From: ANME-2 cluster archaeon
Lineage (GTDB): Archaea > Halobacteriota > Methanosarcinia > Methanosarcinales > Methanocomedenaceae
Assembly (NCBI GenBank): GCA_014237145.1
Contig: JAAXOC010000096.1
Span: 60,138-124,137, forward strand
Length of the DNA stretch: 64,000 bases
Direction: 5' to 3'
The notes under the pieces are model-generated. The model was not told the origin of the DNA. It was given only the letters and a program-made list of their open reading frames with translations, and made no database searches. Within the stretch, counting starts at the first letter, position 1. Every line of letters starts with the position of its first letter. Positions 10,891-60,628 of the stretch are shown in pieces. Made by a program: the position numbers and the translations under genes.

Positions 10891-10989
10891 CTTCAACTCT
10901 GCCACATATGGAAAATAACGTATTCAATAACCTCAACTCTGCCACTTATATAGAATTATTTATTCTCCCGATAAGCAAGGTAGAGGTTT

Positions 10990-11277: not shown

Positions 11278-11280
11278 ATC

Positions 11281-11385: not shown

Positions 11386-11540
11386 TGCAGCAGCGCTCAG
11401 GTCCACGCTATCTGCAGTGCTTGAATCAACAAAACACATATTATACTGCACCTCATAATATAGAAATCCATTATAGGTAATAAGATTTCTGCCGAAACGA
11501 AAAACACTGGCAAACACTTATATATCTCTTACAATATCAT

Positions 11541-12455: not shown

Positions 12456-12511
12456 GCTGACGACCGTCCCACCACAGCGAATAGGATAATCCTATAACCA
12501 GGAGGAAGAGA

Positions 12512-19591: not shown

Positions 19592-20102
19592 GAATAATGT
19601 TATGACAATACCCAGGGTAGATAAGGTCACAGTCCACATAGGCGTAGGCGAGAGTGGTGAGAGGCTCAATAAGGCAGAAGACATTCTTAGTGAGATCACC
19701 GGGCAGGGAGTTGTAAGGACAAAAGCCAAGAGAACACTGCAAACCTTTGCCATTAAGAAGAACGAACCTATCGGGTGTAAAGTAACACTAAGAGGCAAAC
19801 TTGCAGAGAATTTCATGAAGACCAGTCTTGGCATTATCGAGAATTCACTCGGGGAATCCCAGTTCGATGATACAGGGAATTTCAGTTTTGGGATAGAGGA
19901 ACATACCGATTATGAAGGAATGAAGTATGACCCTAATATTGGTATTTATGGCATGGATGTGACTGTGTCACTAATCAGGCCGGGTTACAGGATAAACAGG
20001 CGCAAGATTGGAAAACGAAAGATACCAAACAGTCACAAGATGACAAAGCAGGGTGCTATGGCCTTTATGAATGAGTATCACGGTGTGGAGGTAGTGGCAT
20101 GA
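19584..20102 (+). CDS. rpl5: Ribosomal protein L5 (uL5)
   Basis: The ATG at 19584 ([22 protein letters not shown]) overlaps the S4e stop by 8 nt. The ORF track extends it to 19542. Confidence 0.9.
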
Positions 20103-29081: not shown

Positions 29082-29166
29082 GCCGAGGTAGTCTAGCGGT
29101 ATGGCGCAAGCCTGGAAAGCTTGTGGGGCTTGGTTCCCCTCGGGAGTTCGAATCTCCCCCTCGGCG
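29082..29166 (+). tRNA. tRNA-Ser (anticodon GGA)
   Basis: I folded the cloverleaf by hand. The acceptor is GCCGAGG/CCTCGGC. The anticodon arm is CAAGC-CTGGAAA-GCTTG. The long variable arm is GGGG...CCCC. The T arm is GGGAG-TTCGAAT-CTCCC, and the discriminator is G. Confidence 0.85.
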
Positions 29167-29221
29167 CTTTATTATTCTACGGTTATTGTTATATTTTTTA
29201 TAACGAAACGTTTTTAAATAT

Positions 29222-29800
29222 ATGACGATATGTACAATTTATATGTACGATTTGAGCCATATATTCACGAAATCAAATCTTAAGATTTTCAGACTTTTGA
29301 AGAAGGAAGAAGGGTTATATATCAGGGAGATTGCAGAAAGACTTGCTATATCGCCTTTTTCTGTCCACAATTCGATCAAGTTATTTAAAAGATTGGGGTT
29401 TGTCGAGGTAAAGAAAGTCAAAAACAGGAAAACAATCTATCTAGTCCGGGATAATCCTATACTTAAAAAAATGCTTTCTTTGATAAATATTTCGGACCTA
29501 TCTGGGAATAAAAACTTTAAAAGGCTAATGAAATCAGGAAAGGTGGGGGTTTACGGTAGTTTTGCATCAGGAGAGGATACTAAACATAGCGACATTGATC
29601 TATGGTGCTATAAGCAGGAAAAAGTTTCAAATATTGAACTAAGAGAAATCACCAGGGAGATTGAGAAAGACTTTGGGATGGAAGTAAAACTATTTGTTTT
29701 AAATGACTCAAAGATAAAGGATATAATGGATAATGACCCTGAATTTTTTTACCGGTTGAAATTGAGTTCAATAGCTGTAAATGGTGATGTGTTTGGCTGA
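29222..29800 (+). CDS. wHTH + minimal nucleotidyltransferase (MNT-type antitoxin-like) protein
   Basis: The 192-aa ORF has an N-terminal wHTH (IFRLLKKEEGLYIREIAERL). The NTase motif is GVYGSFASGEDTKHSDIDLW. It overlaps the HEPN ORF by 20 nt. Confidence 0.65.
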   Translation: MTICTIYMYDLSHIFTKSNLKIFRLLKKEEGLYIREIAERLAISPFSVHNSIKLFKRLGFVEVKKVKNRKTIYLVRDNPILKKMLSLINISDLSGNKNFKRLMKSGKVGVYGSFASGEDTKHSDIDLWCYKQEKVSNIELREITREIEKDFGMEVKLFVLNDSKIKDIMDNDPEFFYRLKLSSIAVNGDVFG

Positions 29801-30011
29801 AGTTGAAAGATGTTTCAATAAGGGGTTATTGCAAAAGCGCGGTCCGAGTATCGATTTGGCCAGAAAGAGTATACGGCAGGCAGATATATTTCTCAAGGAT
29901 GCAGGTAAATTAATTGATTCGGACATGACCCGAATGAGTGTACTTGCTTTGTATAATGCATTTTTTCATGCAGCAAGAGCATTGCTTTTTAAAGAGTGGA
30001 GGGGTATATGA
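29781..30011 (+). pseudogene. HEPN-domain toxin gene, 3'-truncated
   Basis: It has a HEPN-like N-terminus (...ALYNAFFHAARALLFKEW) but stops at codon 76, before any Rx4-6H motif. The downstream sequence is not open in any frame. Confidence 0.5.
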
Positions 30012-30104
30012 AAAGAGCGAGGAGTGACTCCCTGGCTTTAAAAATATAAAAAATTCAATCTTAAAACCCAAATTAGCAACGTACTGATACTGACTCACAC
30101 GAAC

Positions 30105-30506
30105 TTAAAGTTCTTTTATATATTCAGCTTCAATTTCTTTAAACATATTAAAATGCTTTTCATTAGCAGTAGCCAATATGAGTTCATATTCATTGGCCGT
30201 TGCTGCAATTATGGCATCAGGAAGTTCAGTCCTATAAGCAGCATCATATTTCTGCCTCAACTTTCCGGCAGTGATGGCGATATTCCTTTCAACCTCAATC
30301 GCTTCCATACAATCCAGTATTCAATAAATTGCACATTCATCGTCAGCATTTCTTGAACCGGATAACAGTTCAGCTTCAGTTATGACCGAAAAGAACCCTA
30401 ATGCACTCTCATCAATAATCCTCATAAGAAAATCCCTGGCATTTTCCCTACCCTTCAGATAATTGATAATGATATCCGTGTCAAGAAGGAACCGGGTTCT
30501 ATACAT
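30105..30506 (-). pseudogene. vapC: PIN-domain VapC toxin interrupted by an in-frame TGA
   Basis: Track ORFs 30321..30506 and 30105..30308 are in the same frame, separated by the TGA at 30321-30323. Together they give FLLDTDIIINYL...SVITEAELL...*...DAIIAATA...LATANEKHF, which are the PIN acidic motifs. Confidence 0.7.
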
Positions 30507-30726
30507 TATCGATCCTCTTCGTTCTTTTATCCCATCCGCTCCTTATGTCATCAACATATTCTATTCCGCCTTTAATCTCGTTTCTTTCGGACCAGACACC
30601 AAATGCTTCCATTGCATTCTCTTTTTGTACATCTCTTTCTAATGTGATCTTCACCACACTATCAACTGCAAGACCCATCGCTTCTTTAATCTTGTAAGGT
30701 AGCGATATATGTCCATCAGGTAACAC
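30499..30726 (-). CDS. vapB: AbrB/SpoVT-type antitoxin (VapB)
   Basis: It has LPDGHISLPYKIKEAMGL and overlaps the vapC start by 8 nt. The frame stays open upstream (IIKTINYTAK) as far as a GGTGA site, so the true start may be a non-canonical codon near 30756. Confidence 0.65.
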   Translation of the reverse strand: MLPDGHISLPYKIKEAMGLAVDSVVKITLERDVQKENAMEAFGVWSERNEIKGGIEYVDDIRSGWDKRTKRIDNV

Positions 30727-30824
30727 TTTAGCGGTATAATTTATAGTTTTTATTATCTCACCTCATTTATGCTATTTGTAACTCCTTTAATTAAATATGT
30801 TCTTACTGGCAATCGCTTATTATT

Positions 30825-30998
30825 TCATATCATGTCCATTTCTATTCCCTCTCCTTTTTCCAGCTCCTCAATAGACTGATCGATGCTTCCAAGAGCCTCT
30901 TTATCCAAAAGAATTTCTAAAGTTTCAGATTCTGCTATACTTAGACCTTTTAAGATGTGAGCCAGTCGTTCGAGGTTAATCAGTTCGACTCTATCCAT
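30825..30998 (-). CDS. Small acidic helical protein (orphan antitoxin-like), 57 aa
   Basis: This ORF is below the track cutoff: MDRVELINLERLAHILKGLSIAESETLEILLDKEALGSIDQSIEELEKGEGIEMDMI. No partner toxin ORF is visible. Confidence 0.3.
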   Translation of the reverse strand: MDRVELINLERLAHILKGLSIAESETLEILLDKEALGSIDQSIEELEKGEGIEMDMI

Positions 30999-31444
30999 TT
31001 ATTTTATTGTTGTCGACATCTATAAATCACCTTCTTATTCTTATGTTTATAGTGATTATATAATATATTCCCTGCTTCATTCTACAATCCCTGTATCCCT
31101 TTAAGGTGGCTGTTGGTCTCTTTGACGTTAAAATCCCGATTGCAAGCATTATGCATTTCATGGATTTATTACTTCTTTAGATGATATCCTGTGGTTAATG
31201 TGGTTGAATTGTTCTTTTGGGCAGTATTTCTTGGGTTATTTTTTTGTATATAATGTGAGCTGTCCATATTAGAAGTGCTGAATAATAGAGTTGATTGAAT
31301 TATCTCTATATGCAGAGGAATAACAAACAAGGTTAAGCAAAATTCTCAATGGACTTAAATAATTTAGAAATTCTTATAACTCATAATGGCATATGATTAT
31401 GAAATATCGCTATCATATATCCCATCACAGGATGGAGGCAGTAA

Positions 31445-33551: not shown

Positions 33552-33658
33552 GGGCTCGTAGCTCAGACAGGCAGAGCACCTGGCTTTTAAGGTGTATGGA
33601 AAAGACCCATGCATTGGAAGATACCAGATGGTCGGGGGTTCAAATCCCTCCGAGCCCG
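33552..33658 (+). tRNA. tRNA-Lys (anticodon UUU) with a 33-nt intron at the canonical 37/38 position
   Basis: The acceptor is GGGCTCG/CGAGCCC. The D arm is GCTC...GAGC. The anticodon arm is CCTGG-CTTTTA[intron 33590-33622]A-CCAGA. The T arm is GGGGG-TTCAAAT-CCCTC, and the discriminator is G. Removing the intron gives a 74-nt tRNA. Confidence 0.75.
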
Positions 33659-50708: not shown

Positions 50709-52619
50709 ATGACAAAGATATACCTGGGAAAAATGGTGCTGCACTGGTGCCCCCAATGCGATCTACCGGTACTGGAGCCCATATGTGCATGCGGCTCACC
50801 TGCTGGTAAGGTCAGGGTTACACCGCCCGGTGATATCAGGCCCACATTCCCCCATGATATTAACCTTATCAATGCTACTGCTATAACGCAGTTCGGCAGT
50901 CCCTTGATACCTGACGGGACTATCGCCATCATGAATAAAGTGCCATCGGACGACAGGATGGAAGAGATCATAGCCAGTGGAGTGCCCCTTGCCAATATCA
51001 GGTTCGATGTGGAGTCAGGTAAGTGGGTACTGCTGCCCAGGATGGAAGGGGCAGCCAGGATATTCACTAAAATGGAGGGGCGCAGCAACTGGGTGGTGAT
51101 CGACGAATCGGCAGTACCGTTCATAGAAAAAGGTGCCAGCACGCTGGCACCCGGCGTTATCGATGCCGACCCTGGGATCATCCCGGGCGCTGAGGTGATA
51201 GTGGTATCGCCTGATGGCATACCTGTGTCTGCCGGCAGGGCTAAGATGAACGGTAGGGAAATGGTGGAAGCCAAAAGGGGCGTGGCTGTCAAGACCAGGT
51301 GGAGCGGGATTGTTGAAACAGTTGCAGCACCCGTCCCCCATTCATGGGATGATGTAGTTACTGCTAATCTTAATATCCTAAAAGATTTTGAAGCTAAAGC
51401 CCATGCGTTTATCAGGAACGTGTCCCAATCCACAAACCGACCTGTAAGTGTATCATACTCGGGGGGCAAGGACAGCCTGGTCACCTTGCTGCTGGTAATG
51501 GACTGCCTGGATGGCTTCAATGTCTTGTTCGCTGATACCGGACTGGAGTTCCCAGAGACACTGGAGAATGTAAAAGAGGTTGGCAGGCATTACGGCCTGA
51601 CTGTGAAAACCTTTTATGCAGGGGACGTGTTCTGGGACTCAATCGATACTTTCGGACCACCCACGGTTGAGGCGAGATGGTGCTGCAAGACCTGTAAACT
51701 GGGCCCGATCTCCACGCTCATTGAAGAGAACTTCCCAGAAGGCTGCCTGACATTTATCGGTCAGCGCAAGTACGAAAGCGAGGGCCGGGCCAGGAGTGAT
51801 AAGATATGGAAGAATCCCTGGATAGGTAACCAGATAGCGGCCTCGCCGATCCAGAACTGGACTGCGCTGCATATCTGGCTGTACCTCTTCTGGAAAGGGG
51901 CGCCGTACAATCCGTTGTATGAACAGGGGTTCGACCGCATCGGCTGCTGGCTGTGTCCCTCGGGAAGCATGGCTGAGATGTCGCGTATTAAGGATATTCA
52001 TCCTGAAATGTGGGCCAGGTTCGAGGAGAAGCTGCACTCCCATGCAGAGAAGTTCGGCTACGGGAAGGGCTGGGTAGATTACGGGCTGTGGCGCTGGCAA
52101 AATCCTCCGAAAGTGCAGCGTAAAATGGCAGAGAGGCTGGGCATCAACCTGGTACCTGAAGGGTTCGGCGGGGAGATGGAGTTCTCAATGGTGTCTGGGT
52201 ACAGGCCATGTAAGGCTGGCGGGGTTTCGGCTGAGGGTAGTTTTGGTGTGCCCCTGAACCTTGAGGCAATCGAGGGTTCGGGTATGATGAGAGTGCTGGG
52301 TGAGGTGCATTCCATGGATGGTGTGATCACATCCAGCCAGGGTGAGGATAATGTGCAGGTGTTCGCATCTGGCACTGTGACTGCCAGGAGCGATACTGAT
52401 GCCAGAGCCAGGCGGTTGATGAGGGGGGCCGAATCTTCGATCCGGCGGGCGCTGGAGTGTACGGGCTGCGGGCTGTGTGTGGGTAAGTGCAAGGTGCGGG
52501 GTGTGAAGGTTAAGGATGGGTGGGCTATGGTGAATGAGAACTGTACGCATTGTGGGCTGTGTTTGAAAGCATGCCCGGTGGTGCGGTATTTGAATACCAA
52601 AGATCTATCGAATATATGA
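50709..52619 (+). CDS. PUA-domain + PAPS reductase-like PP-loop ATPase + 2x[4Fe-4S] ferredoxin fusion protein
   Basis: The 636-aa ORF has an N-terminal zinc ribbon (CPQCD...CACG) and a PUA-like region. The PP-loop is VSYSGGKDS. The C-terminus has CTGCGLCVGKC...CTHCGLCLKACP. Confidence 0.75.
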   Translation: MTKIYLGKMVLHWCPQCDLPVLEPICACGSPAGKVRVTPPGDIRPTFPHDINLINATAITQFGSPLIPDGTIAIMNKVPSDDRMEEIIASGVPLANIRFDVESGKWVLLPRMEGAARIFTKMEGRSNWVVIDESAVPFIEKGASTLAPGVIDADPGIIPGAEVIVVSPDGIPVSAGRAKMNGREMVEAKRGVAVKTRWSGIVETVAAPVPHSWDDVVTANLNILKDFEAKAHAFIRNVSQSTNRPVSVSYSGGKDSLVTLLLVMDCLDGFNVLFADTGLEFPETLENVKEVGRHYGLTVKTFYAGDVFWDSIDTFGPPTVEARWCCKTCKLGPISTLIEENFPEGCLTFIGQRKYESEGRARSDKIWKNPWIGNQIAASPIQNWTALHIWLYLFWKGAPYNPLYEQGFDRIGCWLCPSGSMAEMSRIKDIHPEMWARFEEKLHSHAEKFGYGKGWVDYGLWRWQNPPKVQRKMAERLGINLVPEGFGGEMEFSMVSGYRPCKAGGVSAEGSFGVPLNLEAIEGSGMMRVLGEVHSMDGVITSSQGEDNVQVFASGTVTARSDTDARARRLMRGAESSIRRALECTGCGLCVGKCKVRGVKVKDGWAMVNENCTHCGLCLKACPVVRYLNTKDLSNI

Positions 52620-52804
52620 TGAGTATACTTAACGTAGAATCGAATTTGGGTTAATTATACATGACACACATTAGACAGGTGCTGCCGGACTCCAATGAAT
52701 AGTGGAAGGGTATAAGTTTTTAGTGGATGACTATTTTGGGTAGCTATCCTAAAGTACTGAAAGTGACTGGAACGATTTTAAATTTTGATATTCACTTAAC
52801 ATAG

Positions 52805-53032
52805 TTCCAGGAGGAATCGAATGCCACGTTTTACTCTCTTAGACATAGTTTTGCCACATATCTACTGGAAAGTGGTACAGACATGCAGTATATCCAGGAG
52901 TTGCCTGAGCACAAAAGTTCAAAGATAACAGAAATATATACACATATCTGTACCAAGAATGTAGGTAAGTTTAAAAACCCATTGGATAGTTTACAGATAA
53001 AAGAAGGAGAATCACTTATTGACCCAGCTTGA
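52805..53032 (+). pseudogene. Tyrosine recombinase/integrase, C-terminal fragment only
   Basis: It reads FQEESNATFYSLRHSFATYLLESGTDMQYIQELPEHKSSKITEIYTHICTKNVGKFKNPLD, which covers the R-H-x-x-R...Y catalytic C-terminus. A TAG lies immediately upstream and there is no N-terminal part. It is AT-rich, unlike what follows. Confidence 0.75.
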
Positions 53033-53540
53033 ATACATCGAAGCTATTGAAAAGCGCCTCTGGGGTGTGGTGGACACAATGCGGGCTAACTCCAACTACG
53101 CCAGCAACGAGTACTTCCTACCCGTGATGGGGCTGGTGTTTCTCAGGCACGCCTACAGCTGCCATCTTGCGGTGAAGGGTGGTATCGAGGCTAACCTTCC
53201 CACCCGCGGCGTCAAGACGCGAGCGCTGACCAAGAAGGATTTCTCCGGGCAGGGCGCTATTTTCCTTCAACCCAGGGCGCAGTTCGACCATCTCGTGGCC
53301 CTGCCCGGCAGCGAAGACCGCTCCAAGGCGATCATTGAAGCAATGGAGTCTATAGAAGGCGACTACGACAACCTGCGTGGTGTCCTTCCCAAGAGCGAAT
53401 ATCAGGAACTGGATGACGATGTACTCGGCCAGCTCTTGCGGACGCTCAACCCCGACGAGCTGGCGAAATATAATGAGTCACTCACCCAAGCCCGCAACCT
53501 CCTCCTGCCGCGCTTGATGAATGGGGAGGTTGTCGTTTGA
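53019..53540 (+). pseudogene. hsdM: Type I R-M remnant: HsdM N-terminal domain fused in frame to an HsdS C-terminal tail
   Basis: The HsdM_N-like part is EKRLWGVVDTMRANSNYASNEYFLPVMGLVFLRHA...SIEGDYDNLRGVLPK. The HsdS-type ending is ARNLLLPRLMNGEVVV*. There is no methyltransferase catalytic domain. Confidence 0.7.
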
Positions 53541-53640
53541 GCTTAATTGTTTTCGTCAAACTCATTGCTTTGTGCGAATGGTTTACTGTAAAGCATAAAC
53601 GTACTGTAACCTCAACCAGATACTCTCAAGCCGCTGTCGG
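53537..53640 (+). pseudogene. Decayed 5' remnant of a second AlbA_2-type gene
   Basis: Track ORF 53537..53749 begins ...KLIALCEWFTVKHKRTVTSTRYS. The intact gene at 57784 has SNLIALGEGFTTEFKRTVTSSLGR. The TTGA overlap with the hsdS tail mirrors the ATGA at 57784. Confidence 0.45.
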
Positions 53641-53748
53641 TCTTGACGAGGGTTTGAGTGAACGGAGCGTTGGGTGCGTTAACATCTATGTAGCCATGTT
53701 GGTTTTTATGGCGACGATACGGGCAAGCATGCTTTTGGAGGCAGTCTG

Positions 53749-56700
53749 ATGCCAGCCTTTGTAACCAACGGACCCGATATCCCAGAGAGTCTATTGCGGG
53801 CACACGAAGATGGCCGTGTTGTATTTTTCTGCGGCGCTGGCATTTCATACCCGGCAGATCTGCCGGATTTTTGCGGTTTGATGGATCGGGTATATAGGGA
53901 GTTGGATACGACGTGGACGCAGTACCCAATCGAGAAGCAGGCTTATGATAATAAACAGTACGATGCGATGCTGGATCAGTTGGAACGCCGCTACCCCGGT
54001 CATCGCTTTAAGGTCAGAAAGGCGTTGGCAAACGTTCTCAAGCCCAAGTGGCGCAAAAAAGGCGCTACAACGACCCACCAGGCACTGCTGCAACTGGCTA
54101 TTGATCACAAGGGCAAGACCAGGCTAGTTACCACCAACTTTGACCGCATTTTCAAGTCCATAATAACACGGCATAAGCCTGAGATTCCGAGCTTTGATGC
54201 TCCTCTCCTGCCCATTCCAAAACCGACCCGTTGGCGTGGTGTGGTGCATCTGCACGGTTTATTACCTACTTCGGCCGACGAAACTGCGCTCAATCGCTTG
54301 GTTTTGACCAGTAGCGATTTTGGTCTGGCATACCTCACTGAGCGTTGGGCGGCTCGTTTTGTCAGCGAGTTGTTCCGAAATTACACGGTTTGCTTCGTCG
54401 GTTATGGCATCAACGACCCGGTATTGCGCTACATGATGGATGCGCTCGCCGCCGATGAGTTACTTGGTGAAACTCGACCTGAAGCCTATGCCTTCGCAAA
54501 CTTCCGCGATGGCGAACGGGACCAGGCGCAGATCGAATGGGAAACTAAAGGTGCCATTCCGCTGCTATACGAAGTGCCTACGGATACACAAAATCACTCA
54601 GCGCTTCATCTCACCCTCAAAGAGTGGGCTGACACGTATCGCGATGGTGTGAGTGGCAAGAAAATGATTATAACGAAGCATGCGAGTACGCCGCCGTTGA
54701 CATCGTCGCGGTCAGACTTTGCCGTCGGTCGCGTGCTGTGGGCATTGACAGACTGGCTGGCAGCCAAACACTTTGCCGACCTAAATCCCGTTCCCCCATT
54801 AGAATGGCTCGAACCGCTGACTAAAGCCCAGTTTAGTCATGACGACTTGGCGTGCTTCGGGGTGGTTCCCAAAAGCGAAAAAGATGAAAATCTGATTTTT
54901 AGCGTCATTAGCCGTCCAGCACCGTATACACATGCGCCCTTGATGTGCATTGTTGACATGGGTGCCCAGGTAAGCTATTGGGACGAACTCATGTTCCAAT
55001 TGGCACATTGGCTCACGCGGCATCTCGATGACCCTAAACTAATACTTTGGTTGTCCAATCAAGGCGGCCAGTTGCATAAGCGATTCGCATCTATGGTCCG
55101 GAGTCGAATTGAATACCTTGATAAGCTGGTACACGATGACAATCAGACTGAACTCGAACGTATCCGCGCTGCTGCTCCCAGAGCCATACCAAGCCGATTA
55201 ATGCGTATCCTCTGGAGGCTGCTGTTGTCCGGGTGTGTGAAGTCACCTCAAATCAATTTAGATCTCTACGATTGGTTACGCCGCTTTGAGCAGGACGGCC
55301 TCACGCCGACCTTGTGTATGGAACTACGTGAGTTTTTGAGGCCATATGTGATTCTTCGTGAACCATTCCGTTGGGACGAAGAAATAACCGACCTGCACGA
55401 GGCGAAGTCCATTAAAGATCTTGTAGAATGGGATATCGTACTGTCCAGCGATCATGTTCATTCCATGTTGCGCGATCAGGCGAACAAGCCGGGTTGGCAG
55501 GCGGCACTACCAGATTTGTTGCAGGACGTCACCGTTCTACTGCGTGATGCGCTCGATCTGATGCGGGAATTAAGCGGCGCAGAAGACAAGAGCGATTTGT
55601 CCTATCTCGATCAGCCTTCAATCAGCGAGCACGAACAGAACATAGGTTTTCCCGACTGGACGGCATTGATCGAACTCACACGCGATGCTTGGTTGGCTAC
55701 GGTGCAGACCAATCCAGCACAGGCACGGCATGCCGCAGAAGGCTGGTGGCAGGTGCCTTATCCGCTATTCAAACGGCTGGCCTTTTTTGCTGCGACACAG
55801 AGCGATGTAATTCCTCCTCCTCATGCGCTCAGCTGGCTGCTGGCCGATAATCACAAGTGGCTGTGGTCAATTATAACCAAGCGCGAAGCAATACGCCTGT
55901 TGGTGTCACTAACGCCAAAGTTGGATGCATTGGGGATAACTGAATTGGAGCAAGCCATTTTGGAGGGGCCACCGCATGAGATGTTTATGGATGACCTTGA
56001 TCCACAAGAGTGTGCACGCATCGTGGATCAAGATATCTGGTTGCGACTGGCAAAAGCGAGTGCTTCAGGGGCAGTACTCGGCCACGATGCCAGTACAAAA
56101 CTGGCTGATCTGACACTACAATATCCAGGTTGGAAGTTGGCTGAAGACGAAAGTGATGAGTTTCCGATTTGGATAAGCGAAGATGATAGGTGGCGCAATT
56201 TTGTCCCCACACCACGCCACCAAATCGAATTGATGGAGTGGCTCAAACAACCCGCCAGATCAGATCAGAGGCAGGAAGACGACTGGCTTCAGCGCTGTCG
56301 TGACGACTTTTCGACTACCTCTGGCGCCTTGTCTGCTTTGGCTCAGGATAAGGAGTGGCCCATCGAACGCTGGCGCGAAGCACTACAAGTTTGGGCAGAG
56401 GATAAATTGATCGAACACTCTTGGAGCATGGCGCAAGTAATTTCCAAAGCACCCGATGATGTAATTCAAGCACTTTCACATAGTCTCGGCTGGTGGCTGC
56501 AAGCACAAGCCAGAATCTTCAAGGGTCGTGAGGAGCTGTTTTTCGCTCTCATTCGTCGTATTCTGGAATTGGAACTCCAAAATGGGGTGCATAAGGATTA
56601 TGACCCTGTGTCTAGTGCAATCAACCATCCCGTCGGACTCGTGACGAAGGCGTTACTACACTGGTGGTATCAACAGAAGCCGAAAGACACAGAAGGTCTG

Positions 56701-57546
56701 AGAGACGAGGTCAAACCTCTATTCACTAAACTTTGCGATACGGGAGTTGAGAAGTTCCGCCACGGCCGCGTTTTGCTCGCAGCCCACGCGATTGCGCTGT
56801 TCCGAGTGGATGAGAAGTGGGTGAGAGAGTGTCTACTGCCCTTGTTCGACTGGCAACTATCTGAGGTTGAGGCACGTGCGGTCTGGGATGGCTTTTTGTG
56901 GTCACCTCGCCTCTACCTACCGCTGCAGTCAGCCATCAAACAGCCGTTGTTAGAAACAGCGACACACTATGAGGAACTCGGTAAGCACGCCGAGCAGTAT
57001 GCGGCATTTTTGACCTTTGCAGCCTTAGACCCGGGCGACACATTCACAACCAAAGAATTGGCGGAGGCGACGTGTAAATTACCTGTGGAGGGCTTGCAAA
57101 GTGCGGTGCAGGCAGTTATCCGTGCTCTTGATGGCGCTGGTGAACAACGTGGGGAATATTGGCGTAATCGTGTTCTTCCGTACTTTAATTTGGTTTGGCC
57201 CAAAACCATTGTTGTGATGACACCCACGATATCGGAGCTTTTCGGCCAGCTCTGCGTGGCTGCACAGGAAGCCTTTCCAGAGGCGTTGGAGAAGTTACAG
57301 CACTGGCTACAGCCAGTTGAACATCCATTTTATCTTATTCATCTCCTGAACGAAGCGAAATTGTGCAATCAATTTTCATCAGATGCTCTGGTGTTTCTGG
57401 ATACTGTTGTTGGTAATGATGCACAGTTGTTGCCACAAGAACTTAAGCAGTGCCTGGATGATATTGAAAAAGCCGACCAGACATTGGCCGAGGATGCGCG
57501 TTTTGTTCGGTTGAGTCAGGTTTTCGAAAGGCATGGCATTTCCTGA
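53749..57546 (+). CDS. SIR2-domain giant protein (defence-associated sirtuin / SIR2-DUF4020-like), 1265 aa
   Basis: ggagg precedes the ATG. The N-terminal motifs are VVFFCGAGISYPADLPDF, LVTTNFDRIF, VVHLHGLL, LTSSDFGLAY and CFVGYGINDPVLRYMMD. About 1000 aa of helical, W/L-rich C-terminal region follow. Confidence 0.8.
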   Translation: MPAFVTNGPDIPESLLRAHEDGRVVFFCGAGISYPADLPDFCGLMDRVYRELDTTWTQYPIEKQAYDNKQYDAMLDQLERRYPGHRFKVRKALANVLKPKWRKKGATTTHQALLQLAIDHKGKTRLVTTNFDRIFKSIITRHKPEIPSFDAPLLPIPKPTRWRGVVHLHGLLPTSADETALNRLVLTSSDFGLAYLTERWAARFVSELFRNYTVCFVGYGINDPVLRYMMDALAADELLGETRPEAYAFANFRDGERDQAQIEWETKGAIPLLYEVPTDTQNHSALHLTLKEWADTYRDGVSGKKMIITKHASTPPLTSSRSDFAVGRVLWALTDWLAAKHFADLNPVPPLEWLEPLTKAQFSHDDLACFGVVPKSEKDENLIFSVISRPAPYTHAPLMCIVDMGAQVSYWDELMFQLAHWLTRHLDDPKLILWLSNQGGQLHKRFASMVRSRIEYLDKLVHDDNQTELERIRAAAPRAIPSRLMRILWRLLLSGCVKSPQINLDLYDWLRRFEQDGLTPTLCMELREFLRPYVILREPFRWDEEITDLHEAKSIKDLVEWDIVLSSDHVHSMLRDQANKPGWQAALPDLLQDVTVLLRDALDLMRELSGAEDKSDLSYLDQPSISEHEQNIGFPDWTALIELTRDAWLATVQTNPAQARHAAEGWWQVPYPLFKRLAFFAATQSDVIPPPHALSWLLADNHKWLWSIITKREAIRLLVSLTPKLDALGITELEQAILEGPPHEMFMDDLDPQECARIVDQDIWLRLAKASASGAVLGHDASTKLADLTLQYPGWKLAEDESDEFPIWISEDDRWRNFVPTPRHQIELMEWLKQPARSDQRQEDDWLQRCRDDFSTTSGALSALAQDKEWPIERWREALQVWAEDKLIEHSWSMAQVISKAPDDVIQALSHSLGWWLQAQARIFKGREELFFALIRRILELELQNGVHKDYDPVSSAINHPVGLVTKALLHWWYQQKPKDTEGLRDEVKPLFTKLCDTGVEKFRHGRVLLAAHAIALFRVDEKWVRECLLPLFDWQLSEVEARAVWDGFLWSPRLYLPLQSAIKQPLLETATHYEELGKHAEQYAAFLTFAALDPGDTFTTKELAEATCKLPVEGLQSAVQAVIRALDGAGEQRGEYWRNRVLPYFNLVWPKTIVVMTPTISELFGQLCVAAQEAFPEALEKLQHWLQPVEHPFYLIHLLNEAKLCNQFSSDALVFLDTVVGNDAQLLPQELKQCLDDIEKADQTLAEDARFVRLSQVFERHGIS

Positions 57547-57628
57547 TGTAACGGGAGAAAGACAAAAGCATGATTGAGAAAATGTACGTTACTATGATTA
57601 TTAAGACGACACTGAAAAACAACGAATC

Positions 57629-57787
57629 ATGAGCACTAGCAATTACACCGAAGACACCCTCGTTCAGCAAACCATGGTCGAGTATCTGGATTCACAGCTC
57701 GGCTGGGAATCGGTCTATGCCTCCAACAACGAGGACTTCGGACAGGACCGCCTACCGCGCTTGATGAACGGGGTGGTGACAGTATGA
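57629..57787 (+). pseudogene. hsdR: Type I R-M remnant: HsdR N-terminus fused in frame to an HsdS C-terminal tail (52 codons)
   Basis: It reads MSTSNYTEDTLVQQTMVEYLDSQLGWESVYASNNEDFGQD + RLPRLMNGVVTV*. Its stop overlaps the next ATG (ATGA). Confidence 0.65.
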
Positions 57788-59190
57788 ACGAACACACGCT
57801 TTCCAACCTCATCGCCCTCGGCGAAGGCTTCACCACTGAGTTCAAACGTACGGTTACTTCCAGCCTCGGGCGGGAGATATGCGCTTTTGCCAATGCAACA
57901 GGTGGTATCATCCTGATTGGGGTGGATGATGATGGTGAGATTGTCGGGGTTGGCAAGCACAATAAACTTAAGTCTCAGGTCCAGTCCATCGCCCGTTCTG
58001 CCGAACCCCCCATCGCGGTTGATGTAGAGAACATTGGCGAAGTACTTTGCATCACTATACCTGAACAACACAGCAAGCCCTATTCCTTTAGCGGCAAGTT
58101 TTTCATTCGCGAAGGTGCGACCTCGCAGCAGATGGCCCGCAATGAAATCCGCGAGTTTTTCTTCAAGGAAGGGTTGATTCATTTTGATGAAACACCCTGT
58201 ACCAATTATGATCTGGAACGTGACCTGACCCCTGAGATCTGGAGCCGTTTTATTCAGCACGCCCGTCTTCCGGATGGGCTGGAGACTCGTCCTGCATTGG
58301 ATAACCTGCATCTGACCAAAGACAGCAAGATGACCCATGCCGGTGCCTGGCTGCTGTGTGATGACATCACCTGCTATACCTTGCAGGCGCATGTAACCTG
58401 TGCGATGTTTAGGGGAACGACCAAAACCTACATCCTAGACCGCAAGGATTTTGCTGGCGATCTCTATTCAATCTACGAAGACTGCATGGCCTACTTGCAG
58501 GCCAAGTTGAATACTGCTCTAATCCCTCATGCGAGAGGCCGGGACGAACGGCTGGAGTTGCCAGCAGATGCCCTCCGGGAAGCCCTGGTCAATGCCATTG
58601 CACACCGTGACTATCGCTCAACCGCCAATGTGCAGGTGTACGTCTTCTACGACCGTCTTGAGATTGTGACGCCGGGCGGCCTGCCCGCTGGGATGCGCGA
58701 GGAGGATTTGGGAGTGAAAAGTGTGCCGCGCAATCCATTGCTGTTTGGAATGTTCTATCGTATGGGGATGGTGGAACAGGTAGGCAGTGGCATCAAACGA
58801 ATCCGTGAGATGTGTCGCGATTATGGAGTGGCTGAGCCAGTGATTGAGGTCTCGGAGAACTGGGTGACAACCACGTTCAGGCGGCCGATCGAACAAGTTG
58901 AAGACCAGGTCACGGGTGAAGTCACGGGTGAAGTCACGGGTGAAGTCACAAGTGAAGTCAAGCAACTACTACATGTCCTCACCAGCGGCTCCATGATGAG
59001 AGCCGAACTGCAGGAAGCGCTCAATCTCAAGGGACAGACAAACTTCAGGGATCGTCATCTTACGCCGGCACTTGAAGTGGGCCTGATTGAGATGACCATT
59101 CCAGATAAGCCAAAGAGTCGCCTGCAGAAGTATCGACTGACCGAAAAAGGCAAGGCTTTACTTAAGGAGTTGGAAGGTGGATCGTCATGA
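57784..59190 (+). CDS. AlbA_2 (Schlafen-type) + HATPase_c_4-like + wHTH protein (COG2865 'RecG-like' putative DNA-binding regulator)
   Basis: The 468-aa ORF has EGFTTEFKRTV...ICAFANATGGIILIGVDDDGEIVGV (AlbA_2) and REALVNAIAHRDY...GSGIKRI (HATPase-like). The C-terminus is QKYRLTEKGKALL (wHTH). Confidence 0.8.
   Translation: MNEHTLSNLIALGEGFTTEFKRTVTSSLGREICAFANATGGIILIGVDDDGEIVGVGKHNKLKSQVQSIARSAEPPIAVDVENIGEVLCITIPEQHSKPYSFSGKFFIREGATSQQMARNEIREFFFKEGLIHFDETPCTNYDLERDLTPEIWSRFIQHARLPDGLETRPALDNLHLTKDSKMTHAGAWLLCDDITCYTLQAHVTCAMFRGTTKTYILDRKDFAGDLYSIYEDCMAYLQAKLNTALIPHARGRDERLELPADALREALVNAIAHRDYRSTANVQVYVFYDRLEIVTPGGLPAGMREEDLGVKSVPRNPLLFGMFYRMGMVEQVGSGIKRIREMCRDYGVAEPVIEVSENWVTTTFRRPIEQVEDQVTGEVTGEVTGEVTSEVKQLLHVLTSGSMMRAELQEALNLKGQTNFRDRHLTPALEVGLIEMTIPDKPKSRLQKYRLTEKGKALLKELEGGSS
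58909..58956 (+). repeat. 12-nt in-frame tandem repeat (4 copies) in the AlbA_2 gene linker
   Basis: gtcacgggtgaa occurs 3 times, then gtcacaagtgaa. They encode VTGE-VTGE-VTGE-VTSE. Confidence 0.9.
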
Positions 59191-59510
59191 ATCCCGTCCC
59201 CTACACCTAAGACACCCTTATCCAGCAGACCACCGCCGAATACCTGGAGCAGTAGCTCGGCTGGGACTCAGTCTACGCCTACAACAACGAGGACTTCAGA
59301 CCGGACAGCCTGCTGGGTCGTGCATCCGACCGTGAGGTAGTGCTGACACGCATCCTGCGTGAGAAGCTCATCGAACTGAACCCGCACCTGCCCGATAAGG
59401 CCTACGATGACGCAGTGCGCCAGATCACAGTCACCGACGCTGTGCGGGTGACCATTTGGGATTTCCTTTGGAGCGACAAAACGGGGTTGCCTGTGGAGAG
59501 TTACACATAG
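59187..59510 (+). pseudogene. hsdR: hsdR pseudogene: N-terminus with two in-frame nonsense codons joined to the extreme C-terminus
   Basis: It reads MNPVPYT*DTLIQQTTAEYLEQ*LGWDSVYAYNNEDFRPDSLLGRASDREVVLTRILREKLIELNPHLPDKAYDDAVRQI...VTIWDFLWSDKTGLPVESYT*. The stops are TAA 59208-59210 and TAG 59253-59255. The helicase/nuclease core is absent. Confidence 0.7.
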
Positions 59511-59653
59511 GATGATCTAAAAACAATATCTAATGAAGTATTTAGGCATGTTTACCGGGTATATCCATCGGTTCCATCGCCGTGTTATGCAGAAGCTGCA
59601 TGAAAAGATAAACGAAATATTTACAGAACCGCGCCCGCCTCAGTCAAACACTA

Positions 59654-59741
59654 CGATAGATAGCGCCTGGATGCTCTGTATGCGAGCTGCGGCCTCGGGC
59701 AGTGGTGGACATATTGGGGCACCTCTGCAGCTGTTGAAATA
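59654..59741 (+). repeat. Copy A of a roughly 90-nt direct repeat pair at the island's right edge
   Basis: It shares ...atagc.cctg.at...tgctct.tatgcg.gc.gcgg.ctc...gctgttgaaata with copy B. Confidence 0.6.
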
Positions 59742-60039
59742 ATCGAATAAACAGCAGAGGTTCGTAGAGCGTATTTACTTTTCTCTGAGCACTCGGCGGT
59801 TCATCTTAAACTGATTACAGCTCCTGTTAGTTTCTTCAATCATCCCACCGACAGCAACCAGGTTTTGCAATGTGCCAACCGCGTGCTAACCCATGATTGC
59901 TTCCCTCACAAGTTCAAATCCGTGTAAATCCGTATCCTAAAATATTGCCACCCCAGCCCCCATTTATTCACTACCTCGCCACCCTCTGCAAACATCTGCC
60001 TGCGCTGCCGTCAGCACTCACCCTGCCGCCCCTCCTGCT

Positions 60040-60132
60040 CGACCCCATAGCCTGCATCTCGTTGCTCTATATGCGGGCAGCGGTCTCTGGGGTTGGTTAA
60101 TGCTGCCGATAGCGGCCATGGCTGTTGAAATA
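60040..60132 (+). repeat. Copy B of the roughly 90-nt direct repeat pair
   Basis: See copy A. It has the same orientation, a 5-nt indel, a divergent middle and an identical 3' end (gctgttgaaata). Confidence 0.6.
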
Positions 60133-60146
60133 TATAATCTGTGTAA

Positions 60147-60353
60147 TGTGGTACAGATGAAGAACTTCAGGAAGCAAGGCAATTGATAAGAAAAATTCCA
60201 CAACATCCTTTAGTTAAATCTGATGTGAAAAGACCTGAGATCCTTCAGGATTTTGTTGCACTTGTTGAGGATGAGTTTAATAAAGTCCCCGAGACAGATA
60301 TTAGCAGGTGGCTGTCTAATTTTATTGACACAGATGCTAGATCGACGCCATAG
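60147..60353 (+). pseudogene. Start-less, protein-like open frame (possible C-terminal fragment of a disrupted host gene)
   Basis: It is open from a TAA at 60144-60146: CGTDEELQEARQLIRKIPQHPLVKSDVKRPEILQDFVALVEDEFNKVPETDISRWLSNFIDTDARSTP*. It is AT-rich like the host. I do not recognise the family. Confidence 0.25.
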
Positions 60354-60433
60354 TTGGTAGTGTTCAGAAAAATAAATGGCCTTTATAGTGGTAGTATTTA
60401 GTGAGATCTGGGACATGGAAAGATGATGTGAAT

Positions 60434-60607
60434 CCAACGAGGTCTAAGACCGTAGCGTGGTATCAAACGGAAACTATGGGAACTCGGGAGGGCCATTATG
60501 CTCTCCTTACAAGGGTAGGAGTTTGCAATATCAAGCCAATGAACGGTAAGACACGGTTTAATGTAATAAAAAATCTCCAGTTAGTTGCCCTAAATTTAAT
60601 GTTCAGC
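60434..60607 (+). pseudogene. Possible DDE transposase C-terminal remnant (IS5/IS1182-like ending)
   Basis: The 5' extension of the radical-SAM ORF reads ...RSKTVAWYQTE...GKTRFNVIKNLQLVALNLM. This loosely matches the R-S-x-V-E...G-x-x-K-V...A-x-N-L endings of such transposases. The call is weak and by eye only. Confidence 0.25.
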
Positions 60608-60628
60608 AGAACATATATTCCTCCTATC

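What the first reader, a model, noticed from the sequence alone, without database searches (positions are those of the whole stretch)
52805..60140. Sharp compositional island with bacterial-style codon usage inside an archaeal core region, bounded by an integrase stub
By eye, the segment from about 53019 to about 59510 is markedly richer in G+C than its flanks. Sampled 60-nt lines are around the low 50s percent, against the 30s to mid-40s in the flanks. The segment also uses CGC, GCG, CTG and GCC codons that are rare in the neighbouring genes.

The switch is abrupt at 53019. It falls inside the tail of an AT-rich tyrosine-recombinase fragment (52805-53032, which retains ...SLRHSFATYLLESG...EIYTH...), whose last codons overlap the TTG start of the hsdM stub.

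This pattern fits inter-domain transfer of a bacterial defence locus into an archaeon, followed by decay. The alternative is a chimeric contig.
Basis: partly seen in the sequence, partly recalled or inferred. Interest (0 to 1): 0.6.

Follow-up and report, generated by a model that had tools for sequence, protein, structure and literature searches.

The report
Decayed restriction operon still carrying Dsr1
A 6.6-kb foreign segment in a methane-oxidising archaeon (ANME-2) is the wreck of a mobile type I restriction-modification operon whose embedded anti-virus genes (the NAD-destroying sirtuin Dsr1 and a Schlafen-like ATPase) are still intact; its nearest relatives sit in other archaea of the same order, so a direct jump from bacteria is not shown.

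Summary
The island is real, and its true limits are 52997-59633. GC alone is weak evidence: 0.521 against 0.465, and the left neighbour gene has 0.542. The clear signals are codon usage (Arg AGG 44%->10%, CGC 11%->33%, GCG 9%->25%) and CpG observed/expected (~1.0 against 0.65).

It is not an assembly chimera. Six independent assemblies carry it, and a second ANME-2 lineage (92% nt identity) has it at the same locus.

The content is a remnant of a type I R-M operon:
- hsdM' fused to the hsdS tail
- an intact dsr1 (NCBIfam equivalog, 1783 bits)
- a small junction ORF
- an intact Schlafen/GHKL/wHTH gene
- an hsdR remnant with three stop codons

An intact operon that is 86% nt identical defines two internal deletions, of 5.1 and 2.8 kb. 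That operon is labelled 'Deltaproteobacteria', but its flanks encode TFE and DUF2551, so its host is an archaeon. In that population the same slot holds Dsr1, AAA_13+GmrSD or AAA_13 alone.

The R-M backbone is 81-90% identical across archaea and bacteria. The first bacterial Dsr1 whose context I checked is 68% identical. The integrase stub is not part of the shared unit. The element replaced an AAA_14/DUF4143 gene from about codon 18.

Verdict: a known kind of element in an unusual host. The inter-domain reading is only partly supported.

The parts
52620..52713 (+). Conserved host sequence downstream of the PUA-PAPS-reductase gene. It includes the first ~17 codons (from ATG 52661) of an AAA_14/DUF4143 ATPase gene, which is cut off here. 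This is the left breakpoint of the inserted or rearranged block.
   Evidence: 89-96% identical to L019, L016, L011, L009, L010 and L008. In L011 the sequence continues as an intact 422-aa AAA_14/DUF4143 ORF, which matches PADLOC candidate PDC-S01.
52802..53032 (+). 5'-truncated tyrosine recombinase gene (C-terminal ~75 aa, ...LRHSFATYLLESG...EIYTH...), lying in an AT-rich block that spans 52714-52996.
   Evidence: Pfam Phage_integrase 4e-11, profile positions 125-168 of 172. There is a stop codon just upstream in the same frame. GC 0.34 and CpG o/e 0.35. Present in L023 at 93% identity, but absent beside the island in L024, L047 and L049.
52997..59633 (+). The island proper: a remnant of a mobile type I R-M operon with embedded defence genes.
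   Evidence: Collinear nucleotide homology of 80-90% to L024, L028, L047 and L049, starting at 52997-53006 and ending at 59632-59633. That end is 31 nt past the hsdR stop of L024.
53019..53540 (+). Fusion ORF (173 aa): HsdM N-terminal domain (~148 codons) joined in frame to the last ~25 codons of hsdS. The deletion junction lies at about 53462-53488.
   Evidence: Pfam HsdM_N. PADLOC MTase_I profile positions 3-152 of 653, plus Specificity_I C-terminus at residues 147-173. 5.1 kb is missing relative to L024 (positions 1395-6532), with CTG microhomology at the junction.
53537..53620 (+). Degraded duplicate of the 5' end of the Schlafen-like gene. It forms the start of the spurious 'orf70' (53537-53749) and marks the old hsdS|SLFN junction into which the dsr1 module went.
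   Evidence: BLASTP 13/19 identical to SLFN residues 9-27. A nucleotide alignment shows the same duplicate in L024.
53749..57546 (+). dsr1, encoding an intact defence-associated sirtuin 1 (1265 aa): an N-terminal SIR2 NADase domain plus a large C-terminal region.
   Evidence: NCBIfam NF041818 Dsr1 equivalog, 1783 bits against a cutoff of 1400. PADLOC Dsr1 1618 bits over the full length. Pfam SIR2_2. N130 and H169 are invariant among 12 homologues. There are 338 differences from L023 with no stop codon, against 13.6 +/- 3.4 expected.
57629..57787 (+). Small junction ORF (52 aa): a duplicate of the hsdR 5' end (~110 nt) fused to an hsdS tail. Its stop overlaps the ATG of the next gene.
   Evidence: Direct repeats 57644-57753 / 59202-59311 (80%) and 53501-53530 / 57748-57777 (87%). 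Alignments. A 46-52-aa counterpart is called in L024, L028, L030, L031, L047, L048 and L050-L052, and the homologous sequence is present in L023.
57784..59190 (+). Intact Schlafen/AlbA_2 + GHKL-type ATPase (HATPase_c_4) + winged-helix (Fic-like_C) gene, 468 aa. It is a constant passenger of this operon family, sitting between the cargo slot and hsdR.
   Evidence: Pfam SLFN_AlbA_2 2.8e-21, HATPase_c_4 4e-22, Fic-like_C 1.1e-24. PADLOC match to the SLFN-GHKL part of a pAgo model. Present before hsdR in L024, L028, L030 and L050-52. Frameshifted in L023.
59187..59606 (+). hsdR pseudogene: N-terminal ~85 codons joined at about 59440 to the C-terminal ~55 codons, with three in-frame stops (TAA at 59208, TAG at 59253, TAG at 59508).
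   Evidence: Translation. Homology to L024 12259-12497 and 15315-15514, with 2.8 kb missing. L023 has the same junction but a different single stop codon.
59634..60135 (+). Non-coding spacer to the right of the island. It holds two copies of a ~110-nt repeat (59634-59745 and 60030-60135), each ending in ...GGCTGTTGAAATA.
   Evidence: Alignment and motif scan. L023 has one hybrid copy, and its sequence diverges from the window after it. L019 joins the truncated AAA_14 stub to the equivalent of 60117-60147. No Rfam match.

Best explanation
**What it is.** Positions 52997-59633 are the remnant of a mobile type I restriction-modification operon of the form hsdM-(DUF1016)-hsdS-[cargo]-SLFN/GHKL gene-hsdR. 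The cargo here is dsr1.

**Where it sits and when it arrived.** It lies in a variable, defence-rich spot just downstream of a PUA-PAPS-reductase-like gene of an ANME-2 (Methanocomedenaceae-related) archaeon. There, together with an AT-rich block carrying an integrase stub, it replaced an AAA_14/DUF4143 ATPase gene from about codon 18. It arrived before two ANME-2 lineages split. This is inferred from equal synonymous divergence of island and host genes.

**Likely source.** It came from a pool of very similar operons circulating among seep Methanosarcinales. That pool belongs to an R-M family shared at 81-90% protein identity by anaerobic archaea and bacteria.

**Decay (shown).**
- A 5.1-kb deletion fused hsdM codon ~148 to the hsdS tail.
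- A 2.8-kb deletion removed the hsdR core.
- Independent nonsense mutations followed in each lineage.

**What survives.** The two embedded genes remain intact in this genome: dsr1 and the Schlafen/GHKL/wHTH gene.

**Likely function (inferred from family membership, not tested).** Dsr1 is a stand-alone sensor-effector. On viral infection its SIR2 domain hydrolyses NAD+, which stalls virus replication. It does not need the R-M partner, which is why it can outlive the operon.

**How the cargo is exchanged (inferred).** The dsr1 module was originally slotted between hsdS and hsdR, as in the bacterial locus L034. It was later moved into an hsdS|SLFN junction by recombination through conserved hsdS-tail and hsdR-5' sequences. 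That event left the duplicated junction pieces at 53537-53620 and 57629-57787. The same slot holds other defence cargo in sister alleles.
For: **Composition.**

**Gene identities.**

**Independent assemblies.**

**Same layout in a second lineage.** L023 has the same layout and the same deletion junctions. Third-position identity is 0.874-0.892 for island genes against 0.884-0.897 for host genes. dS is 0.19-0.21 for island genes against 0.16-0.21 for host genes.

**Intact reference operon.**
- L024 is 80-87% nt identical in the shared blocks (86-87% across hsdM, DSR1 and SLFN) and defines both deletions and both ends.
- Its host is archaeal.
- It is itself a GC-rich island there: 0.52 against flanks of 0.31-0.35.

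**Transfer between lineages.** dsr1 dS between the window and L024 is 0.30. That is less than PAPS-gene dS between two ANME-2 relatives (0.41), although the two hosts differ by about 13-15 GC points.

**Cargo alleles in the same slot.**
- Dsr1 (L024, L028, L031, L032).
- AAA_13 + GmrSD-like (L030).
- AAA_13 alone (L050-52).
- All match PADLOC defence models or candidates.

**Origin of the hsdR-5' fragment.** A bacterial locus has hsdS-dsr1-hsdR without the SLFN gene (L034).

**Independent R-M decay around dsr1.** L047 and L049 have different junctions.

**Selection on dsr1.** The ORF has no stop codons against 13.6 expected, and none of 3000 simulations gave zero. The catalytic Asn and His are conserved.

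**Dsr1 function in the literature.** Dsr1 cloned alone protects B. subtilis and causes transient NAD+ depletion (bioRxiv 10.1101/2021.12.14.472415, read).
Against: - No expression or activity data exist for this archaeon.
- The operon's own upstream region is replaced in the window by the integrase-stub block, so the promoter is unknown. In L024, L047 and L049 that region holds a TTTAAATA-like box about 40 nt before the start codon.
- No clean empty site was found. Relatives differ from each other downstream of the PAPS gene, so the insertion event itself cannot be reconstructed.
- dN/dS cannot be used as evidence of function here. The proven hsdR pseudogene gives 0.23 and dsr1 gives 0.375.
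- Host labels of the related contigs come from MAG binning and from flanking marker genes, not from isolates.
Confidence: 0.78

Rival explanations
1. One reading: a bacterial defence locus moved directly from a bacterium, for example a syntrophic sulfate-reducing partner, into the ANME archaeon and then decayed.
For: - The Dsr1 family in cultured organisms is bacterial and often plasmid-borne. It is ~50% identical on plasmids or secondary replicons in PLSDB of Ralstonia, Nitrosococcus, Pantoea and Shewanella.
- Named hits at 54-65% identity are all bacterial.
- In the bacterial contig L034 the locus matches its flanks in composition.
- The HsdM, HsdR and HAD clusters include Desulfobacteria or Deltaproteobacteria labels.
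- HsdM is 82-88% identical in Desulfobacterales, Chloroflexi and Acidobacteria.
Against: - The closest intact copy labelled 'Deltaproteobacteria' sits beside TFIIE_alpha, DUF2551 and AF_0843 genes, so its host is an archaeon.
- The contexts I could check at 79-87% Dsr1 identity are archaeal, and the remaining hits above 70% are unnamed short contigs or of unknown host. The first bacterial context I verified is at 68%.
- The nearest named HsdM hits (90%) are the ANME fosmid GZfos11A10 and Methanogasteraceae.
- The island's codon style also occurs in the flanking genes of an archaeal-labelled contig.
Confidence: 0.15
2. The island arrived as cargo of a site-specific integrative element. The stub at 52802-53032 is that element's integrase, and its attachment site lies in the 5' end of the AAA_14/DUF4143 gene.
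For: - The stub lies directly against the island's left end and reads into it.
- The AAA_14 gene is truncated within about 5 nt of the same position in an independent relative, L019. There it is joined to sequence equivalent to window 60117-60147, as if a site-specific event recurs at this point.
- L016 has a 2.4-kb insertion that duplicates the 3' end of the PAPS gene.
Against: - The stub's composition (GC 0.34, CpG o/e 0.35) is opposite to the island's.
- The stub is absent next to the island in L024, L047 and L049.
- No matching N-terminal integrase fragment, flanking direct repeats or tRNA gene was found.
- No close relative of the stub exists in IMG/VR; the best hit is 52% identical.
Confidence: 0.2
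3. Assembly or binning artefact: a bacterial fragment joined to an archaeal contig.
For: The composition switch is abrupt. The sample is a consortium metagenome in which ANME and bacterial DNA co-occur.
Against: - The junctions are identical in three NCBI MAG assemblies and in Logan assemblies of separate runs (SRR1237970, SRR11888059, SRR11888060).
- A lineage diverged by 8% (L023) has the same host-island junction.
- Island and host genes show the same synonymous divergence.
Confidence: 0.01

Closest known systems
Dsr1, defence-associated sirtuin 1 (Gao et al. 2020, cited from memory; Garb et al., bioRxiv 10.1101/2021.12.14.472415)
   Same: - Full-length equivalog-level match.
- N-terminal SIR2_2 domain with conserved Asn and His.
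- About 1260 aa, encoded by a single gene.
   Different: - The host is an ANME-2 archaeon, not a bacterium.
- It is 50-52% identical to the best plasmid-borne bacterial Dsr1.
- Its activity and trigger are untested.
- It sits in the wreck of an R-M operon.
Defence genes embedded in type I R-M operons: PrrC in EcoprrI (PMC12707154), TgvAB in V. cholerae VPI-2 (PMC11411939), and 'guilt-by-embedding' (bioRxiv 10.1101/2024.01.29.577857)
   Same: - In the intact relatives, the cargo lies between hsdS and hsdR of a type I operon.
- One sister allele (L030) carries an AAA_13 + GmrSD-like pair in the same slot, an arrangement resembling type I-embedded GmrSD-like systems.
   Different: - In this window the carrier R-M is dead, so any cooperation or guarding relationship with it is gone.
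- The hosts are archaeal.
- Duplicated hsdS-tail and hsdR-5' junction pieces flank the cargo.
Prokaryotic Schlafen-domain defence proteins: Cash (PMC13462974) and SLFN-GHKL-pAgo (bioRxiv 10.64898/2026.05.29.728809)
   Same: The 468-aa protein has a Schlafen/AlbA_2 domain followed by a GHKL-type ATPase domain. It matches the corresponding part of a PADLOC pAgo model.
   Different: It has no Argonaute or CARF-like sensor. It ends in a winged-helix domain. Its function is unknown.
Variable genomic hotspots of ANME archaea (PMC13385816, title and abstract only)
   Same: The position downstream of a conserved gene differs between close relatives, and in the window and in L011/L016 it holds defence or defence-candidate genes.
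   Different: That work concerns ANME-1. Here the host is ANME-2, and I did not read that paper's details.

Membership tests
Dsr1 (defence-associated sirtuin 1) | Full-length match to the curated family model, above its cutoff | tested here: met
   NCBIfam NF041818 equivalog: 1783 bits against a cutoff of 1400, residues 4-1258 on profile positions 3-1261 of 1263. PADLOC Dsr1: 1618 bits.
Dsr1 (defence-associated sirtuin 1) | N-terminal SIR2 domain with the catalytic Asn and His | tested here: met
   Pfam SIR2_2 8.3e-22. TTNFD (N130) and HG (H169) are invariant in 12 homologues down to 57% identity.
Dsr1 (defence-associated sirtuin 1) | Protects against virus infection through NAD+ depletion as a single gene | not testable with these tools
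   This is known only for a bacterial Dsr1 expressed in B. subtilis.
Functional type I restriction-modification system | HsdM with the N6_Mtase catalytic domain | tested here: not met
   Only HsdM_N is present, about 148 codons. The region corresponding to L024 1395-6532 is absent.
Functional type I restriction-modification system | HsdS with two target-recognition domains | tested here: not met
   Only the last ~25 codons remain.
Functional type I restriction-modification system | HsdR with its nuclease and helicase/translocase core | tested here: not met
   About 85 N-terminal and 55 C-terminal codons remain, with three stop codons. 2.8 kb is missing.
Integrase-bounded genomic island / integrative element | Intact integrase, flanking direct repeats (att), often a tRNA target | tested here: not met
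   The integrase is 5'-truncated. No convincing flanking repeat was found. The nearest tRNA genes (at ~29.1 and ~33.6 kb) are about 19-24 kb away.
Defence gene embedded in a type I R-M operon (PrrC / TgvAB-type arrangement) | Located between hsdS and hsdR of one operon | tested here: met
   This holds in the intact relatives L024, L028 and L034. In the window only the remnants of hsdS and hsdR flank it.
Horizontally acquired DNA | Composition differs from the host, and near-identical copies occur in unrelated genomic contexts | tested here: met
   Composition. The shared blocks are 80-87% nt identical to L024/L028, which has different flanks and a host GC of 0.31-0.35.

The most novel reading that the evidence does not exclude
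**Claim 1: a reusable junction.** The ~150-nt junction module (hsdR 5' end plus hsdS tail) precedes the Schlafen-like gene in every allele. In L028 it also recurs upstream of dsr1. It may act as a homology arm, a kind of linker, that lets type I R-M operons swap embedded defence cassettes. The cassettes seen so far are Dsr1, AAA_13+GmrSD and AAA_13 alone. The exchange would run between archaeal lineages and, through the cosmopolitan R-M backbone, between archaea and bacteria.

**Claim 2: a retained leader.** When the R-M part decays, the hsdM 5' end is kept each time as the leader for the surviving cargo. Three independent deletions keep it: the window/L023, L047 and L049.
Probability: 0.3. 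Interest if true: 0.55.

Novelty: new member of a known kind. Interest (0 to 1): 0.33.

Why it matters
- It documents Dsr1, a defence protein studied only in bacteria, under selection for an open reading frame in uncultured methane-oxidising archaea.
- It shows an embedded defence gene outliving the restriction system that carried it, with at least three different deletion junctions around dsr1, one of them demonstrably independent.
- It gives a concrete case of cargo swapping inside a type I R-M operon in a natural archaeal population.
- It is a caution on method. GC% and 'bacterial-looking' codons did not identify the donor domain, and a MAG label ('Deltaproteobacteria') on the key comparison contig was contradicted by that contig's own flanking genes.

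Tried and rejected
- **Empty site.** I scanned genome contigs with the PAPS-reductase gene. Relatives share the left flank only as far as window 52711, and each has different genes after that. No clean pre-insertion site is available, and the right flank (the radical-SAM gene and beyond) is not syntenic in any of them.
- **SSV-type split integrase.** I considered an Int(C) fragment at one end and an Int(N) fragment at the other. I rejected this: no Int(N) fragment or att repeat lies near 59.6-60.1 kb, and the break falls just before box II rather than near the N-terminus.
- **dN/dS as evidence that dsr1 is functional.** I rejected this because the proven hsdR pseudogene gives 0.23 and the hsdM stub 0.32. 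The cause may be faster change at GC- and CpG-rich third positions during amelioration, which is my inference. I replaced it with a stop-codon simulation.
- **Rfam.** Nothing was found in the right-hand spacer.
- **IMG/VR.** There is no close relative of dsr1, and only hits of 52% identity or less to the integrase stub.
- **PLSDB plasmids.** There is no DNA match above about 76%, and only over short stretches.
- **Literature.** A search for the assembly and run accessions found nothing.

Full report
**Host and setting**

The window is a core chromosomal region of an ANME-2 archaeon. It carries ribosomal-protein genes, RNA polymerase, EF-2 and EF-1alpha. The window's Dsr1 protein is recorded in NCBI as coming from an 'ANME-2 cluster archaeon'. 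The nearest species representative by the neighbouring PAPS-reductase-like gene is Candidatus Methanocomedens sp., at 95%. That genus belongs to the family Methanocomedenaceae in the ANME-2 cluster.

Partly.

GC% is weak evidence:
- The stated segment has GC 0.521 against 0.465 for the rest.
- It is the GC-richest 6.5-kb stretch of the window. Other windows reach at most 0.490, which gives z of about 3.5.
- But the gene immediately to the left (50709-52619) has GC 0.542, and host genes range up to that value.
- dsr1 (GC 0.513, GC3 0.536) lies inside the host range.
- The sharp 'edge' at 53019 is mostly the contrast with a 400-nt AT-rich block (GC 0.358) that holds the integrase stub.

The robust signal is codon and dinucleotide usage:
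- Arg AGG falls from 44% to 10%.
- CGC rises from 11% to 33% of Arg codons.
- GCG rises from 9% to 25% of Ala codons.
- ATA falls from 32% to 16% of Ile codons.
- Codon-likelihood z-scores adjusted for gene length are -12.5 for dsr1, -4.9 for the SLFN gene and -4.1 for the hsdM stub. Host genes give -0.24 +/- 1.4.
- CpG observed/expected is 0.82-0.99 in the island against 0.65 +/- 0.10 in host genes.

CTG is commoner in the host, and GCC is about equal.

**What is encoded**

| Coordinates | Content |
|---|---|
| 52802-53032 | 5'-truncated tyrosine recombinase |
| 53019-53540 | HsdM N-terminal domain fused in frame to the last ~25 codons of HsdS |
| 53749-57546 | Full-length Dsr1 (NCBIfam equivalog 1783 bits, cutoff 1400; PADLOC 1618 bits) |
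| 57629-57787 | 52-aa ORF: the hsdR 5' end joined to an hsdS tail |
| 57784-59190 | Intact Schlafen/AlbA_2 + HATPase_c_4 + winged-helix protein |
| 59187-59606 | hsdR remnant with three in-frame stops |

**It is not a chimera**

The identical island and its left junction are assembled in three NCBI MAGs and in Logan assemblies of three separate runs. The right junction is present in the three MAGs.

A different lineage, L023 (GCA_021108445.1, 'Methanosarcinales archaeon'), is collinear with the window from the cation-efflux gene through the island at 92% nt identity. It has the same 173-aa hsdM stub and the same hsdR deletion junction.

Island and host genes have diverged equally between the two lineages:
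- Third-position identity is 0.874-0.892 for island genes and 0.884-0.897 for host genes.
- dS is 0.19-0.21 for island genes and 0.16-0.21 for host genes.

So the island, already carrying both deletions, was present in their common ancestor. Point decay then went on separately. The window has three nonsense codons in the hsdR remnant. L023 has one, at a different codon, and its SLFN gene is frameshifted.

**The intact prototype and the deletions**

Contig L024 carries hsdM(704 aa)-DUF1016 x2-hsdS(388)-dsr1(79% aa)-49-aa ORF-SLFN gene(479)-hsdR(1079).

The window aligns to it at 80-87% nt in four blocks:

| Window | L024 |
|---|---|
| 53006-53462 | 938-1394 |
| 53488-58931 | 6533-11955 |
| 59202-59440 | 12259-12497 |
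| 59435-59632 | 15315-15514 |

This defines two deletions. One of 5.1 kb runs from the hsdM body to the hsdS body, with CTG microhomology at the junction. One of 2.8 kb removes the hsdR core. It also defines the true ends of the unit, 52997-53006 on the left and 59633 on the right, which is 31 nt past the hsdR stop.

**Who hosts the prototype?**

L024 is labelled 'Deltaproteobacteria bacterium', but its own flanks contradict that label:
- The flanks have GC 0.31-0.35, so the operon is an island there too.
- The adjacent HAD hydrolase clusters at 90% identity or more with proteins labelled ANME-2 cluster archaeon, Ca. Methanomarinus and Methanosarcinales, as well as Deltaproteobacteria and Desulfobacteria.
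- On the 43-kb version of the contig (L028), the HAD gene is followed by TFIIE_alpha, DUF2551, AF_0843 and NFACT genes, which mark an archaeon.

A third context is L027 (dsr1 79% aa, 85% nt, no R-M genes). It neighbours a GTPase and a MoeA gene whose cluster members are labelled Methanosarcinaceae or Euryarchaeota.

The first bacterial context I could verify is L034 (68% aa). It sits next to PhoU and a PhoB-type response regulator, and there dsr1 lies directly between hsdS and hsdR.

The backbone is cosmopolitan. L024's HsdM is 81-90% identical to proteins from:
- an ANME fosmid (GZfos11A10), Methanogasteraceae, Methanosarcinaceae, Heimdallarchaeota, Methanofollis and Methanoculleus;
- Acidobacteria, Chloroflexi, Desulfobacterales, Thiovibrio and Desulfatiglans.

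The SLFN protein shows a similar mix. Dsr1 at 41-52% identity is on bacterial plasmids and secondary replicons listed in PLSDB.

The island's codon style (Arg CGC+CGT 61%, AGR 16%) resembles both L034's bacterial flanks and L027's archaeal-labelled flanks. It does not indicate a domain of origin.

Conclusions from this section:
- Horizontal acquisition is shown.
- Spread between archaeal lineages is shown. dsr1 dS between the window and L024 is 0.30, below the 0.41 between the PAPS genes of two ANME-2 relatives.
- An ultimately bacterial origin of Dsr1 is plausible.
- A direct bacterium-to-archaeon event for this island is not demonstrated.

**Cassette anatomy**

- Just after the hsdS stop lies a degraded copy of the SLFN gene's first ~85 nt (53537-53620).
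- Just before the real SLFN gene lies a copy of the hsdR 5' end plus an hsdS tail (57629-57787).
- Both duplicates are already present in L024.
- Homology to L027 stops inside the hsdR-5' piece. Homology to L034 ends at window 57660, just inside the hsdR-5'-like ORF, which corresponds to the spacer about 110 nt upstream of the hsdR start called in L034.

My inference is that the dsr1 module came from an hsdS-dsr1-hsdR operon and was recombined into an hsdS|SLFN junction.

In the AT-rich archaeal population the same slot holds dsr1 (L024, L028, L031, L032), AAA_13(858 aa)+GmrSD-like(700 aa) (L030) or AAA_13(720 aa) (L050-52). In almost every allele the cargo is followed by a called 46-50-aa junction ORF (none was called in L032), and in all by the SLFN gene and hsdR. 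These cargos match PADLOC models PDC-S06 and Orf5/HEC-06. Embedding of defence genes in type I operons is a known phenomenon, with PrrC, TgvAB and 'guilt-by-embedding' as examples.

**Repeated decay around dsr1**

- L047 fuses hsdM codon ~37 to the hsdS tail at a TCCTGCC microhomology.
- L049 keeps ~96 hsdM codons plus ~60 nt of hsdS, which is more hsdS than the window keeps. It therefore cannot derive from the window's deletion. It has lost the SLFN gene and hsdR.
- All three decayed forms keep the hsdM start region and dsr1.

**Insertion site**

Window 52620-52711 is conserved in six relatives. It contains the first ~17 codons of an AAA_14/DUF4143 ATPase gene, which is intact (422 aa) in L011. 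That gene is a PADLOC defence candidate, PDC-S01.

In the window the gene is cut at about 52713. It is followed by the AT-rich block with the integrase stub and then by the island.

L019 is cut within about 5 nt of the same place. There it is joined to the equivalent of window 60117-60147. L016 has a separate 2.4-kb insertion that duplicates the 3' end of the PAPS gene. The spot is therefore a recurrent target, but no empty site exists among the relatives.

The integrase stub is absent from every other copy of the island. It has GC 0.34 and CpG o/e 0.35. Its link to the island's arrival is unproven.

**Is dsr1 still functional?**

dN/dS is uninformative here, because the proven hsdR pseudogene gives 0.23.

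The reading frame tells more. The window and L023 differ at 338 positions in dsr1 with no stop codon and no indel. Random placement of the same substitutions gives 13.6 +/- 3.4 stops, and none of 3000 trials gave zero. The 420-nt hsdR remnant, by contrast, collected four nonsense codons across the two lineages. The SIR2 Asn and His are conserved.

Mechanism is inferred from the family. A bacterial Dsr1 cloned alone protected B. subtilis from phi29 with a transient drop in NAD+.

**Verdict**

This is a real, horizontally acquired, partly decayed defence island of a known kind, in a host that is rarely examined. The inter-domain reading is only partly supported.

Noticed in passing
window 29170-31400: AT-rich block (GC 0.36-0.37, tetranucleotide z up to 4.4) directly after tRNA-Ser (29082-29167). 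It holds toxin-antitoxin-like ORFs: an MntA-like nucleotidyltransferase (29222-29800), a PIN/VapC-like gene split into two ORFs (30321-30506 and 30105-30308, minus strand), and an AbrB/VapB-like ORF (30499-30726). It may be a second small integrated islet.
   Followed up: partly
window 33552-33658: Rfam finds a 107-nt tRNA here (54 bits) that ARAGORN did not report. It is probably an intron-containing archaeal tRNA.
   Followed up: no
window 11962-12058: Match to the Rfam L4-Archaeoglobi ribosomal-protein leader (48 bits, gathering score 34.5), inside the ORF 11541-12455 in the ribosomal-protein gene region.
   Followed up: no
window 59634-59745 and 60030-60135: Two copies of a ~110-nt repeat ending in GGCTGTTGAAATA lie between the island and the radical-SAM gene. 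L023 has one hybrid copy, and the two genomes stop being collinear right after it. L019 joins its truncated AAA_14 stub to the tail of this repeat. There is no Rfam match. Its role (att-like site, recombination point or small RNA) is unknown.
   Followed up: partly
window 58909-58960: In-frame 12-nt tandem repeat (GTCACGGGTGAA x4.3, coding for GEVT repeats) in the linker between the ATPase and winged-helix domains of the Schlafen-like gene. The alignment with L023 has 13 gap columns in this gene, some of which may reflect a copy-number difference in this repeat.
   Followed up: no
L024 / L028-L032 (JGI 33000363xx; NCBI proteins MDL1975349-56): Contigs deposited as 'Deltaproteobacteria bacterium' carry archaeal flanking genes (TFIIE_alpha, DUF2551, AF_0843). 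Their proteins cluster with proteins labelled ANME-2 or Ca. Methanomarinus. This is probably a mis-binning between ANME and their partner bacteria.
   Followed up: yes
L030 7354-12029; L050 12354-14516: In the same chromosomal operon of the AT-rich archaeon, the cargo slot holds AAA_13+GmrSD-like genes, or AAA_13 alone, in place of dsr1, depending on the sample. In L028 a second copy of the hsdR-5'/hsdS-tail junction also lies upstream of dsr1 (19640-19783).
   Followed up: partly
window 60401-60628; L001 22575-22709: The first ~50 codons of the long radical-SAM ORF resemble (62% aa) a sequence about 6 kb downstream, next to a reverse-transcriptase (RVT_1) gene. Gene callers start the radical-SAM gene at 60428 or 60629. 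The 5' extension may be a repeated non-coding element rather than coding sequence.
   Followed up: no
L016 8443-10820: In a related MAG, a 2.4-kb insertion (HTH protein, FMN reductase) sits between the PAPS-reductase gene and a duplicated copy of that gene's 3' end. The AAA_14 gene follows, and then a DDE transposase. This is another sign that the site is a hotspot.
   Followed up: partly
window 59187-59606 vs L023 9661-10090: A demonstrable pseudogene (the hsdR remnant) still shows dN/dS of 0.23 between the two lineages, and the hsdM stub shows 0.32. This is unexplained. It could be mutation bias at GC- and CpG-rich third positions, late pseudogenisation, or some constraint on these fused ORFs.
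   Followed up: partly
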